From: Escherichia coli | Lineage (GTDB): Bacteria; Pseudomonadota; Gammaproteobacteria; Enterobacterales; Enterobacteriaceae | Assembly (NCBI RefSeq): GCF_003334255.1 | Contig: NZ_QOWU01000237.1 | Direction: 5' to 3' (one strand) | DNA: 458 nt | Shown here: in pieces, positions 1 through 395 of the stretch | How the letters are laid out: each line of letters opens with the position of its first letter | How positions within the stretch are numbered: the stretch's first letter is position 1 | The notes under the pieces: model-generated | Database searches by the model: none | What the model was told of the DNA's origin: nothing | What the model saw: only the letters and a program-made list of their open reading frames with translations | Program-made: the position numbers and the translations under genes

Positions 1-16
1 AATTTGAGAGACTCAC

Positions 17-34
17 GAACAACTTTCGTTGTTC
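17..34 (-). other. Perfect 7-bp hairpin with GNRA (GAAA) tetraloop in the 23S 5' flank
   Basis: Seen in sequence: 17-23 gaacaac and 28-34 gttgttc are perfect inverted repeats around tttc. In transcript sense this is GAACAAC-GAAA-GUUGUUC. It is not followed by a U-tract, so it is not an intrinsic terminator. Inference: a structural element of the pre-23S leader near the region that pairs with the 23S 3' flank for RNase III processing. Confidence 0.5.
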
Positions 35-62
35 AGTGTTTCAATTTTCAGCTTGATCCAGA

Positions 63-75
63 TTTTTAAAGAGCA
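63..75 (-). promoter_or_regulatory. Spacer boxA antitermination element (Nus-factor binding motif)
   Basis: Seen in sequence: reverse complement of 63-75 is TGCTCTTTAAAAA, one mismatch from the rrn leader boxA consensus TGCTCTTTAACAA. It lies immediately downstream (in transcript sense) of a boxB-like hairpin. Established knowledge: rrn operons carry a second boxB-boxA pair in the 16S-23S spacer that supports processive antitermination through 23S. Confidence 0.7.
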
Positions 76-76
76 A

Positions 77-114
77 ATATCTCAAACATCACCCGAAGAT
101 GAGTTTTGAGATAT
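77..114 (-). promoter_or_regulatory. boxB-like RNA hairpin preceding spacer boxA
   Basis: Seen in sequence: 77-86 (atatctcaaa) is perfectly complementary to 105-114 (tttgagatat). In transcript sense the inner part is CAUC-UUCG-GGUG, giving a C(UUCG)G tetraloop with a short bulge. Its position 2 nt upstream of boxA in the transcript matches the boxB-boxA arrangement. Confidence 0.6.
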
Positions 115-148
115 TAAGGCAGGTGACTTTCACTCACAAACCAGCAAG

Positions 149-224
149 TGGCGTCCCCTAGGGGATTCGAACCCCTGTTACCGCCGTGAAAGGGCGGTGT
201 CCTGGGCCTCTAGACGAAGGGGAC
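149..224 (-). tRNA. gltT/gltU/gltV/gltW: tRNA-Glu, anticodon UUC, 76 nt, CCA encoded
   Basis: Seen in sequence: reverse complement of 149-224 is GTCCCCTTCGTCTAGAGGCCCAGGACACCGCCCTTTCACGGCGGTAACAGGGGTTCGAATCCCCTAGGGGACGCCA. It folds as a cloverleaf by hand: acceptor stem GUCCCCU/AGGGGAC, anticodon stem CCGCC/GGCGG with loop CUUUCAC (anticodon UUC = plus-strand gaa at 188-190), T-arm with GGTTCGAATCC, discriminator G, terminal CCA (plus-strand tgg at 149-151). Established knowledge: matches the E. coli tRNA-Glu carried in rrnB/C/E/G spacers. The specific copy cannot be determined from the window; if the source is E. coli K-12 in reference orientation, a minus-strand Glu-type operon would be rrnG (gltW), but that is inference only. 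Confidence 0.95.
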
Positions 225-263
225 ACGAAAATTGCTTATCACGCGTTGCGTGATATTTTCGTG
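224..263 (-). other. Extended imperfect hairpin abutting the tRNA-Glu 5' end
   Basis: Seen in sequence: outer stem 224-231 (cacgaaaa) pairs with 256-263 (ttttcgtg); inner stem 237-244 (tatcacgc) pairs with 248-255 (gcgtgata); 3-nt loop gtt at 245-247; asymmetric internal loop at 232-236. Position 224 is also nucleotide +1 of the tRNA, so the 3' strand of the hairpin in transcript sense runs directly into the tRNA. Confidence 0.5.
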
Positions 264-395
264 TAGGGTGAGCTTTCATTAATAGAAAGCGAACGGCCTT
301 ATTCTCTTCAGCCTCACTCCCAACGCGTAAACGCCTTGCTTTTCACTTTCTATCAGACAATCTGTGTGAGCACTGCAAAGAACGCTTCTTTAAGG
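225..395 (-). other. Internal transcribed spacer, proximal part (between 16S 3' end and tRNA-Glu)
   Basis: Seen in sequence: lies between the 16S 3' terminus and the tRNA on the same strand. From memory it matches the E. coli Glu-type spacer (transcript sense begins CCTTAAAGAAGCGTTCTTTGCAGTGCTCACACAGATTGTCTGATAGAAAGTGAAAAGCAAGGCG...). Boundaries follow from the two flanking RNA genes. Confidence 0.85.

What the first reader, a model, noticed from the sequence alone, without database searches (positions are those of the whole stretch)
17..34. Perfect GAAA-tetraloop hairpin upstream of 23S
A 7-bp perfect stem capped by a GNRA tetraloop is a stable, probably conserved structural element of the 23S leader. 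It lies between boxA and the 23S processing stem.
Basis: seen in the sequence. Interest (0 to 1): 0.2.

Follow-up and report, generated by a model that had tools for sequence, protein, structure and literature searches.

The report
Branch hairpin in the pre-23S leader
The hairpin is real, and its pairing (not its sequence or GAAA loop) is conserved in the spacer RNA ahead of the E. coli 23S rRNA gene, but it is already catalogued (Rfam StyR-44) and is an ordinary side branch of the long helix that pairs the two flanks of 23S rRNA during ribosome assembly.

Summary
The window is the reverse complement of E. coli rrnB (16S 3' end, tRNA-Glu, boxA, 23S leader). On the transcribed (minus) strand, window 34-17 reads GAACAAC-GAAA-GUUGUUC (-7.4 kcal/mol), and CAC/GUG extends it to 10 bp. 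It is the apical stem of Rfam RF01830 (StyR-44), which is present in all seven rrn operons of 5,425 of 5,426 E. coli genomes.

The helix is under selection at the RNA level. Of 74 distinct homologues from Enterobacterales, Vibrionales and Alteromonadales, 73 fold with z < -2. Eight of ten pairs show double-sided compensatory changes. E. coli strains show the series C-G, U.G, U-A at the closing pair.

Stem sequence, stem length and loop are not conserved: only 14 of 74 loops are GNRA. The hairpin does not pair with the 23S 3' flank. Its flanks do, and the post-boxA strand and UCUCUCA anneal to the trailer in all 24 precursors tested. This makes the hairpin the third arm of a three-way junction inside an extended leader-trailer helix, not simply an element lying "between boxA and the processing stem".

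The element is already known, and interest is low.

The parts
17..34 (-). Hairpin core: GAACAAC-GAAA-GUUGUUC on the rRNA-sense transcript (L001:4425-4442)
   Evidence: Perfect 7-bp inverted repeat (I7). Folds at -7.4 kcal/mol. Pair probabilities >=0.998 with or without the trailer. Covariation shown.
24..27 (-). GAAA (GNRA) tetraloop. It is GCAA in an O157:H7 operon and is not conserved outside a few genera.
   Evidence: Loop census: GNRA 14, UNCG 8, other 52 of 74.
14..38 (-). Full hairpin arm: CAC-U(bulge)-GAACAAC-GAAA-GUUGUUC-GUG, 10 bp
   Evidence: -11.4 kcal/mol. It matches the inner stem-loop of the Rfam StyR-44 consensus structure. CAC/GUG pair probability rises from ~0.49 in the leader alone to ~0.93 with the trailer.
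39..42 (-). 5' junction linker GAAA (part of the UUGAAAC motif that is conserved in most Enterobacterales sampled), unpaired in the E. coli precursor model
   Evidence: Cofold; conservation.
43..64 (-). Leader strand A (AAUCUGGAUCAAGCUGAAAAUU). It pairs over 19 bp with the 23S trailer at L001:7442-7463, which lies outside the window just upstream of 5S.
   Evidence: Cofold. Same arrangement in 24 of 24 precursors. 82% of cells paired against 35-44% in slid controls, with compensatory swaps at three positions. Duplex energy -22.5 against -10.6 kcal/mol with shuffled trailers.
63..75 (-). Spacer boxA UGCUCUUUAAAAA (NusB/NusE site of the rRNA antitermination complex). Its last two nucleotides overlap strand A.
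   Evidence: The sequence matches the boxA consensus UGCUCUUUA quoted in PMC6614797. A second copy lies in the 16S leader at L001:2378.
5..11 (-). Leader strand B (UCUCUCA). It pairs with trailer UGAGAGA at L001:7434-7440, only 1 nt from the trailer strand of helix A.
   Evidence: A helix-B pairing of 5-9 bp is predicted in 23 of 24 precursors. 70% of cells paired on the naive alignment.
1..71 (-). Truncated match to Rfam RF01830 StyR-44 (model positions 1-71 of 107). The full element is L001:4388-4496 and ends next to the 23S 5' end.
   Evidence: 81.5 bits in the window and 124.9 bits for the full element, against a gathering score of 54.

Best explanation
The hairpin is a sequence-independent 'leader-leader' helix of the pre-23S rRNA precursor. 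It forms as soon as it is transcribed, about 25 nt after the spacer boxA. About 2.9 kb later the 23S trailer is made. The two leader segments flanking the hairpin are strand A, directly after boxA, and strand B, UCUCUCA. They anneal to two trailer segments that are almost contiguous (0-7 nt apart in most taxa). The hairpin then becomes the third arm of a three-way junction in an extended leader-trailer helix of about 59 bp. The proximal part of that helix, about 28 bp, is the classical RNase III processing stem.

Inferred role: the hairpin compacts the 25-57 nt leader insertion. This keeps that stretch from mispairing and brings strands A and B side by side, so that one continuous trailer strand can zip onto them. 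Any stable, fast-folding hairpin would do, which fits the free variation in stem sequence, stem length and loop and the common occurrence of very stable GNRA/UNCG tetraloops. After RNase III cleavage the hairpin remains in the released leader fragment, which is detected as StyR-44.

Shown here: the hairpin exists, it is selected at the RNA level on the sense strand, it stays local, and its flanks are complementary to the trailer across 12 genera. Inferred: the staple/insulator role and any effect on 50S biogenesis.
For: Identity and context: the window is 100% identical to E. coli rrnB, and the hairpin lies within Rfam StyR-44.

Helix conservation without an alignment: 74 unique inter-anchor segments, 73 with z < -2, median z -4.3, all with >=8 bp. 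Native 5'+3' arm combinations average -12.6 kcal/mol against -4.8 for 5,402 chimeras, and only 6% of chimeras fold as well as the native.

Covariation on a structure-blind MAFFT alignment of 17 Enterobacterales: 86.1% of cells paired against 67.5% in shuffles (0 of 500 reach the observed value) and 25-58% in slid controls, and 8 of 10 pairs have double-sided changes (RNAalifold agrees).

Within E. coli: the only differences within boxA-to-UUUUCGCAAC among the four operons compared are in the hairpin apex. The closing pair runs C-G > U.G > U-A and the loop changes GAAA > GCAA (L065).

Strand: the rRNA-sense strand is more stable in 63 of 74 sequences (p = 1.6e-10), with 67 G.U pairs against 20.

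Junction architecture: the E. coli cofold gives 59 intermolecular bp with the hairpin local, and the same topology appears in 24 of 24 leader/trailer pairs. Helices A and B are 82% paired against 35-44% when slid, with compensatory pairs. Strand A binds the trailer at -22.5 kcal/mol, against -10.6 for shuffled trailers and -8.1 for the local partner. The leader insertion of 25-57 nt contains one hairpin in 23 of 24 precursors and lies opposite 0-7 trailer nt in 20 of 24.

Loop enrichment: 22 of 35 tetraloops are GNRA or UNCG, where about 5% would be expected if all tetraloop sequences were equally likely.

Literature: leader-trailer helices with variable leader-leader helices are a described category (PMC11404451). 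Function of the 16S leader-trailer helix depends on structure, not sequence (PMC10250234).
Against: No experimental structure probing or mutagenesis of this hairpin was found, so the functional role is inference.

All folds used only leader plus trailer. The 2.9-kb 23S rRNA, proteins and co-transcriptional kinetics were left out.

The comparative set was recruited with a pattern that fixes boxA, AAGCUGA and YUCUCAA. Much of leader strands A and B was therefore invariant by design, and covariation there is limited to a few positions.

Helix B is short and only 70% paired on the naive alignment.

The sequences are phylogenetically related, so the shuffle controls overstate significance.

Rfam's curated consensus draws a different, local closing helix for the same 5' strand.

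The standard literature describes only a ~30 bp pre-23S leader-trailer helix (PMC8782170).
Confidence: 0.6

Rival explanations
1. The hairpin is structured filler with no role in leader-trailer annealing. Selection only keeps this stretch of spacer base-paired so that it is not a target for RNase E, Rho loading or mispairing with nascent 23S rRNA. Its position next to the junction is incidental.
For: Stem sequence, length and loop are all free to vary. The hairpin forms equally well with or without the trailer. In some taxa the insertion is much longer or holds two hairpins (Photobacterium and Veronia; Tatumella-1).
Against: The hairpin always occupies the same slot, directly between strands A and B, in two orders whose stems are unrelated. 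A filler could sit anywhere or be deleted, yet none of the 74 rRNA-spacer variants lacks it.
Confidence: 0.25
2. The hairpin is a functional domain of a trans-acting small RNA. StyR-44 would be a bona fide regulator, and the hairpin would give it stability or a protein or target interface.
For: A discrete ~109-nt RNA is seen on northern blots in S. Typhi and E. coli and varies with growth phase (PMC2943607). It rises after tigecycline or ampicillin (PMC3511261) and after carolacton (PMC5615136). The Rfam family scores well.
Against: The discoverers could not exclude a metastable processing intermediate, and the later authors raise the same by-product possibility. The fragment's 3' boundary lies next to the 23S 5' end, and its level would follow rRNA synthesis. 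The hairpin's sequence is hypervariable, so no conserved seed or loop is available for target recognition. No target is known.
Confidence: 0.08
3. The hairpin is a nut-type boxB element in lambda order (boxA then hairpin). Its GNRA-like loop would be read by a protein of the rRNA antitermination complex.
For: It lies about 24 nt downstream of boxA, and in E. coli it carries a GNRA loop, the fold class of lambda boxB (sequence; lambda boxB fold from general knowledge). The role of rrn boxB/boxC is described as unclear (PMC10250234).
Against: The loop is not conserved even among close genera. Enterobacter has GCUCA, Klebsiella has GUUAAU or UUAA, and Citrobacter has GAAUU. Only 14 of 74 loops are GNRA. 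The distance from boxA to the hairpin differs between orders along with strand A length. boxA alone suffices for complex formation, and no host N protein exists. The spacer already has a boxB-like hairpin upstream of boxA.
Confidence: 0.04
4. The inverted repeat acts at the DNA level, on the other strand, or as a terminator; or its bases really pair with the 23S 3' flank.
For: The repeat is a perfect DNA palindrome, apart from the loop, and it also folds on the + strand at -6.5 kcal/mol.
Against: The sense strand is more stable in 63 of 74 sequences, with 67 G.U pairs against 20. No U-tract follows, and the terminator scan does not flag it. The probability of any hairpin nucleotide pairing with the trailer is 0.0000.
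Confidence: 0.02

Closest known systems
Rfam RF01830, StyR-44 (Salmonella Typhi npcRNA 44; Chinni et al. 2010, PMC2943607)
   Same: This is the same element. The window matches the model at 81.5 bits and the complete E. coli copy at 124.9 bits, against a gathering score of 54. The hairpin is the inner stem-loop of the family's consensus structure. It has seven copies per genome, upstream of 23S.
   Different: Rfam closes the hairpin with a local helix (GC.GAAAAUU/AAUUUUC.GC). That helix uses the same 5' strand that, in the precursor, pairs much more strongly with the 23S trailer (-22.5 against -8.1 kcal/mol). The local partner sequence is absent outside Enterobacteriaceae. The Rfam model does not reach Vibrionales or Alteromonadales, which share the architecture.
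Leader-trailer (LT) structures of pre-rRNA with variable 'leader-leader' helices (Warner et al. 2023, PMC10250234; Gemler et al. 2024, PMC11404451)
   Same: Local leader helices that are conserved in structure but variable in sequence branch off a long leader-trailer duplex. Function of the duplex depends on pairing, not sequence. The duplex is present next to a boxA.
   Different: Those papers dissect the 16S leader experimentally. The pre-23S helix is usually described as ~30 bp (PMC8782170). Here the pairing extends to about 59 bp, up to the 3' edge of boxA, with this hairpin at a three-way junction. In the 16S leader the paired boxC lies 18-19 nt after boxA, whereas here strand A starts 0-2 nt after boxA.
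Cyanobacterial 16S-23S ITS 'V3 helix' (Iteman et al. 2000 nomenclature, as used in PMC8461337)
   Same: It is a variable hairpin in the part of the spacer that follows boxA (and the short conserved D4) and precedes 23S. Its basal stem is conserved and its apex is variable, and it is used as a species-level marker. It works as the same kind of element. The order of the domains is from my own knowledge; the domain list is.
   Different: It belongs to a different phylum, there is no sequence homology, and it is much longer (~74 nt). Homology with the gammaproteobacterial hairpin was not tested here.
Lambda nut boxB hairpin
   Same: It is a short hairpin near boxA with a GNRA-type loop fold, in E. 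coli only.
   Different: In boxB the loop sequence is the recognition element. Here the loop is not conserved, the spacing from boxA varies, and no N-like protein exists in the host.

Membership tests
Rfam RF01830 StyR-44 | Covariance-model score at or above the curated gathering score (54 bits) | tested here: met
   81.5 bits for the truncated copy in the window and 124.9 bits for the full copy at L001:4388-4496.
Rfam RF01830 StyR-44 | Located upstream of 23S in every rrn operon (7 copies) | tested here: met
   The hairpin ends 61 nt upstream of the annotated 23S start in rrnB. The 87-nt segment occurs in 5,425 of 5,426 E. coli genomes, with a median of 7 places per genome.
Rfam RF01830 StyR-44 | Accumulates as a discrete ~109-nt RNA | not testable with these tools
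   Literature only: northern blots positive in S. Typhi and E. coli (PMC2943607).
Pre-rRNA leader-trailer structure: leader-leader helix | Leader sequences flanking the local helix pair with the trailer of the same rRNA | tested here: met
   59 intermolecular bp in E. coli. The same topology in 24 of 24 precursors. Pair counts with controls. Duplex energies compared with shuffled trailers.
Pre-rRNA leader-trailer structure: leader-leader helix | The local helix is supported by covariation and remains local in the full precursor | tested here: met
Pre-rRNA leader-trailer structure: leader-leader helix | The LT helix is cleaved by RNase III and needed for subunit biogenesis | not testable with these tools
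   Literature only (Liiv & Remme 1998, as cited in PMC10250234 and PMC8782170).
GNRA tetraloop hairpin as a conserved tertiary-contact motif | The loop is GNRA across homologues | tested here: not met
   The loop is GNRA in Escherichia (GAAA or GCAA), Superficieibacter, Pseudenterobacter, Tatumella, Enterobacter EA-1 and a few others, but in only 14 of 74 distinct homologues.
GNRA tetraloop hairpin as a conserved tertiary-contact motif | A matching tetraloop receptor elsewhere in the precursor | not tested
   No receptor search was run. The lack of loop conservation makes a conserved docking role unlikely.
nut-type boxB | A conserved loop or stem sequence that a protein reads | tested here: not met
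   52 distinct apical arms and many loop classes among 74 sequences.
Intrinsic terminator | G+C-rich stem followed by a U-tract | tested here: not met
   The stem has 2 G-C pairs of 7 and is followed by GUGAGUCUCUC. The scan does not report it.

The most novel reading that the evidence does not exclude
The hairpin and its flanks may form a previously under-described distal module of the pre-23S leader-trailer helix that is built for the antitermination complex. In this reading boxA, held on RNA polymerase by NusB/NusE, keeps strand A at the RNA exit channel. The hairpin acts as a staple that sets strands A and B in register. The emerging trailer, 2.9 kb later, is then captured co-transcriptionally. 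This would be the 23S counterpart of the boxC 'delivery' model proposed for 16S. It would also mean that Rfam's StyR-44 consensus structure describes at most a transient or post-cleavage fold.
Probability: 0.3. Interest if true: 0.45.

Novelty: already known. Interest (0 to 1): 0.2.

Why it matters
For the genome scan this is a true structural RNA element, but it is already catalogued and needs no further attention as a discovery. Two modest points are worth keeping.

First, the comparative data indicate that the pre-23S leader-trailer pairing in Enterobacterales and Vibrionales reaches the edge of the spacer boxA, about 59 bp in E. coli against the ~30 bp usually quoted. The arrangement fits the idea that the antitermination complex hands the leader strand to the trailer.

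Second, the Rfam consensus structure for StyR-44 probably does not represent the precursor state.

The hypervariable apex on a fixed scaffold also explains why this part of the spacer works as a strain- and species-level marker.

Tried and rejected
1. Terminator reading: rejected. There is no U-tract and the scan does not flag the hairpin.

2. DNA-level palindrome or antisense-strand reading: rejected by the strand asymmetry of G.U pairs and fold energies.

3. Pairing of the hairpin bases with the 23S 3' flank: rejected.

4. Rfam's local closing helix as the precursor structure: disfavoured. The local partner gives -8.1 kcal/mol against -22.5 for the trailer, and the partner sequence AAUUUUCGC is absent outside Enterobacteriaceae.

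5. Conserved GNRA or boxB-like recognition: rejected by the loop census.

6. A plain MAFFT alignment across all taxa cannot align stems of different length. I therefore used a subset of 17 sequences of similar length for the formal count and alignment-free tests for the full set. The helix B trailer register is partly misaligned by MAFFT, so its 70% paired value is a lower bound.

7. Literature dead ends. The Condon/Squires 1995 review (PMC239391) is not held. One search failed on a term that was too short. No paper was found that discusses this hairpin specifically.

8. Three pattern hits (L082 Holosporales, L108 and L109 cyanobacterial MAGs) are chance matches, not rRNA spacers, and were excluded.

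9. I did not use the metagenome scan or build a covariance model, because the evidence was already sufficient.

Full report
WHAT THE WINDOW IS. The 458-nt window is the reverse complement of part of an E. coli rRNA operon. Rfam matches on the minus strand are the 16S 3' end (window 458-396), a tRNA (224-152) and StyR-44 (71-1, truncated). The window is 100% identical to E. coli chromosomes. In strain FORC 064 it lies in the btuB-murI-rrn-murB locus, which is rrnB, with tRNA-Glu in the spacer. I fetched the operon in transcript orientation as L001, where locus coordinate = 4459 minus window coordinate. Along the transcript the order is: 16S 3' end; the trailer strand of the 16S leader-trailer helix; tRNA-Glu; a boxB-like hairpin (window 115-76); boxA UGCUCUUUAAAAA (75-63); the hairpin in question (34-17); and then 23S, which starts 61 nt past the hairpin and outside the window.

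THE OBSERVATION. Window 17-23 and 28-34 form a perfect 7-bp inverted repeat with a 4-nt loop. On the transcribed strand this reads GAACAAC-GAAA-GUUGUUC. It folds at -7.4 kcal/mol, and the flanking CAC/GUG with a bulged U extend it to 10 bp and -11.4 kcal/mol. Dinucleotide shuffles of the window give such a hairpin 0.033 times per window, or 0.0028 times with a GNRA loop.

IT IS ALREADY CATALOGUED. The full E. coli element (L001:4388-4496) scores 124.9 bits against Rfam RF01830 StyR-44, whose gathering score is 54, and the hairpin is the inner stem-loop of that model. StyR-44 was cloned from S. Typhi as a 109-nt RNA 'part of ribosomal operon', with seven copies and positive northern blots in S. 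Typhi and E. coli. Its authors could not exclude a metastable intermediate of rRNA maturation (PMC2943607). Later transcriptome papers report that it rises after ribosome-targeting or other stress, and they also raise the by-product possibility. The 87-nt segment around the hairpin occurs in 5,425 of 5,426 complete E. coli genomes, with a median of seven places per genome, and RefSeq does not annotate it.

IS THE HELIX CONSERVED? I used the single genome-collection scan with a pattern anchored on boxA, AAGCUGA and YUCUCAA, leaving the hairpin region free. These came from Enterobacterales, Vibrionales, Shewanella and Pseudoalteromonas, plus three chance hits that I discarded. The 74 distinct inter-anchor segments all contain a hairpin of at least 8 bp. 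Of these, 73 fold better than their dinucleotide shuffles with z < -2, and the median z is -4.3. The stems are unrelated in sequence: there are 52 different apical 7-mers. Joining the 5' half of one sequence to the 3' half of another destroys folding. Native combinations average -12.6 kcal/mol, the 5,402 chimeras average -4.8, and only 6% of chimeras match the native energy.

On a structure-blind MAFFT alignment of 17 Enterobacterales, the ten E. coli pairs are formed in 86.1% of cells. The shuffle control gives 67.5% (0 of 500 shuffles reach the observed value), and sliding the partner gives 25-58%. Eight of the ten pairs show changes on both sides. RNAalifold independently recovers the lower stem.

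Among the four E. coli operons I aligned, the only differences within the conserved boxA-to-UUUUCGCAAC stretch fall in the hairpin apex. The loop is GAAA or GCAA. The closing pair is C-G, U.G (strains MY504 and E69) or U-A (strain D4), which is a complete compensatory series.

The rRNA-sense strand is more stable than the antisense strand in 63 of 74 sequences (p = 1.6e-10) and carries 67 G.U pairs against 20. Selection therefore acts on the transcript, not on the DNA palindrome.

WHAT IS NOT CONSERVED. The GAAA loop is not conserved. Loops are GNRA in 14 of 74 sequences, UNCG in 8 and something else in 52. Close relatives such as Enterobacter, Klebsiella and Citrobacter have 4-6 nt loops of unrelated sequence. 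Among the 35 tetraloops, however, 22 are GNRA or UNCG. That is far above the roughly 5% expected if all tetraloop sequences were equally likely, and it points to selection for a stable, fast-folding cap and not for a recognition sequence.

CONTEXT: THE FLANKS PAIR WITH THE 23S TRAILER. Cofolding the E. coli 23S leader with the 23S-5S spacer gives 59 intermolecular base pairs in four segments:
- Segment A: L001:4395-4416 with 7442-7463 (19 bp). It starts at the last two nucleotides of boxA.
- Segment B: UCUCUCA at 4448-4454 with UGAGAGA at 7434-7440.
- Segment C: 4459-4463 with 7429-7433.
- Segment D: 4484-4511 with 7399-7427. This is the classical processing stem including the 23S termini, and it corresponds to the ~30 bp helix of the literature (PMC8782170).

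The hairpin stays local. Its seven core pairs have probability >=0.998 with or without the trailer, and no hairpin nucleotide has measurable probability of pairing with the trailer.

Thirty-eight fetched loci contain both flanks. From 24 of them, representing 12 genera, I cofolded leader/trailer pairs (all distinct). These covered Escherichia, Enterobacter, Citrobacter, Pseudenterobacter, Tatumella, Mixta, Dickeya, Xenorhabdus, Photorhabdus, Providencia, Vibrio and Grimontia. All fold into the same topology, with 56-87 intermolecular pairs.

On an alignment of 20 leader+trailer constructs, helices A and B are paired in 82.3% of cells, against 35-44% when the partner is slid. There are double-sided changes at three helix-A positions: C-G/U-A, U-A/C-G and A-U/U-A. 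Strand A binds its own trailer at a mean of -22.5 kcal/mol, against -10.6 for shuffled trailers.

The leader insertion between strands A and B is 25-57 nt and holds one hairpin in 23 of 24 cases. The trailer has only 0-7 nt at the same place in 20 of 24, and Grimontia has a trailer hairpin there instead. The hairpin is therefore the third arm of a three-way junction inside an extended leader-trailer helix. It is not a free-standing element between boxA and the processing stem.

DISCREPANCY WITH RFAM. The StyR-44 consensus closes the hairpin with a local helix that pairs GC.GAAAAUU with AAUUUUC.GC. That helix uses the same 5' strand as helix A. The local alternative is worth only about -8 kcal/mol, and its 3' partner sequence is absent outside Enterobacteriaceae, whereas the trailer partner is present in all 24 precursors. 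At most, the local helix is a transient fold that exists before the trailer is made, or a fold of the released fragment. The Rfam model reaches its gathering score in Escherichia, Klebsiella, Enterobacter, Superficieibacter, Serratia, Providencia and Xenorhabdus. It does not hit any Vibrionales or Alteromonadales locus, although those share the architecture.

HOW IT MOST LIKELY WORKS. The following points are shown: a local helix selected at the RNA level, flanked by two leader strands that are complementary to an almost continuous trailer strand, immediately downstream of boxA.

The rest is inferred. The hairpin folds co-transcriptionally and sequesters the leader insertion. This keeps the insertion from mispairing and brings strands A and B together, so that the trailer can zip onto both once it is transcribed. 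Sequence independence, length variation and the enrichment of very stable tetraloops all fit a purely architectural role.

The position right after boxA parallels the model for the 16S leader. In that model, boxA bound to NusB/NusE on RNA polymerase keeps the leader strand (boxC) at the exit channel for delivery to the trailer (PMC8632103; PMC10250234). The geometry differs here, because strand A begins 0-2 nt after boxA and not 18-19 nt after it.

After RNase III cleavage the hairpin is simply part of the leader fragment seen as StyR-44.

RIVALS.
- Structured filler with no role in annealing (confidence 0.25). This is hard to separate from the staple model without experiments.
- A domain of a trans-acting sRNA (0.08). 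This is weakened by the hypervariable sequence and by the by-product caveats in the literature.
- A nut-type boxB read by a protein (0.04). The loop census argues against it.
- DNA-level, antisense, terminator or trailer-pairing readings (0.02). These are refuted.

LIMITS. The folds exclude the 23S body, proteins and kinetics. The recruiting pattern fixed parts of strands A and B, so covariation there is limited by design. The sequences are related to each other, so the shuffle controls overstate significance. No experimental probing of this hairpin was found.

NOVELTY AND SCORE. The hairpin is already known, both as part of Rfam RF01830 and as an instance of the 'leader-leader helices' described for pre-rRNA leader-trailer structures (PMC11404451). 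Its closest analogue elsewhere is the variable V3 helix of cyanobacterial spacers (plus my own knowledge of the domain order). The extension of the pre-23S helix to boxA and the disagreement with Rfam's consensus are modest refinements. They may already be implicit in the supplementary models of Gemler et al. 2024, which I could not inspect. Interest is 0.2.

Noticed in passing
window 76-115 (- strand); 11-mer at window 101-91 and again at L001:4488-4498: The boxB-like hairpin just upstream of boxA (16 pairs with a central internal loop, UUCG loop, -15.8 kcal/mol, z -5.3) contains the 11-mer CAUCUUCGGGU. The same 11-mer recurs 130 nt downstream as the leader strand of the 23S RNase III stem. 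The 23S trailer could in principle pair with either copy. This may be a duplication or an alternative-pairing decoy.
   Followed up: partly
window 223-264, with a perfect 8-bp/3-nt-loop hairpin at 237-255: A long inverted repeat (ACACGAAAAU...AUUUUCGUGU) encloses a perfect hairpin and lies immediately upstream of the tRNA-Glu 5' end on the transcript (pairs I1, I4, I6). The consensus scan flags it as terminator-like, but only on the + strand, which is antisense to the rRNA.
   Followed up: no
window ~349-391 (- strand): The window contains the trailer strand of the 16S leader-trailer helix. It pairs with the 16S leader region that holds boxA (L001:2378) and boxC (L001:2403), and the leader-trailer duplex energy is -95 kcal/mol.
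   Followed up: partly
window 67-71; L001:4388: The Rfam StyR-44 model, and hence the cloned RNA, begins at CUUUAAAAAUC, inside boxA. Its 3' end at L001:4496 lies 8 nt before the 23S start. So the fragment's 5' end maps within the NusB/NusE binding site. How that end is generated is unexplained.
   Followed up: no
L006 vs L007 (Enterobacter cloacae); L029 vs L032 (Tatumella morbirosei): Operons within one genome differ. The two E. cloacae operons have different 23S trailers, yet both keep helix A. The Tatumella operons carry different hairpins (GAAUAAC-GCGA-GUUAUUC against GAAUGAC-GAAA-GUUGUUC).
   Followed up: partly
L033-L035, L058, L090-L091, L114-L115 (Photobacterium, Veronia): In these Vibrionaceae the slot between the anchors holds two tandem hairpins instead of one. 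In Veronia and P. ganghwense one of the two is capped by GAAA.
   Followed up: no
L082, L108, L109: Three pattern hits (a Holosporales MAG and two cyanobacterial MAGs) are chance matches with no rRNA context, and they were excluded from all statistics.
   Followed up: yes
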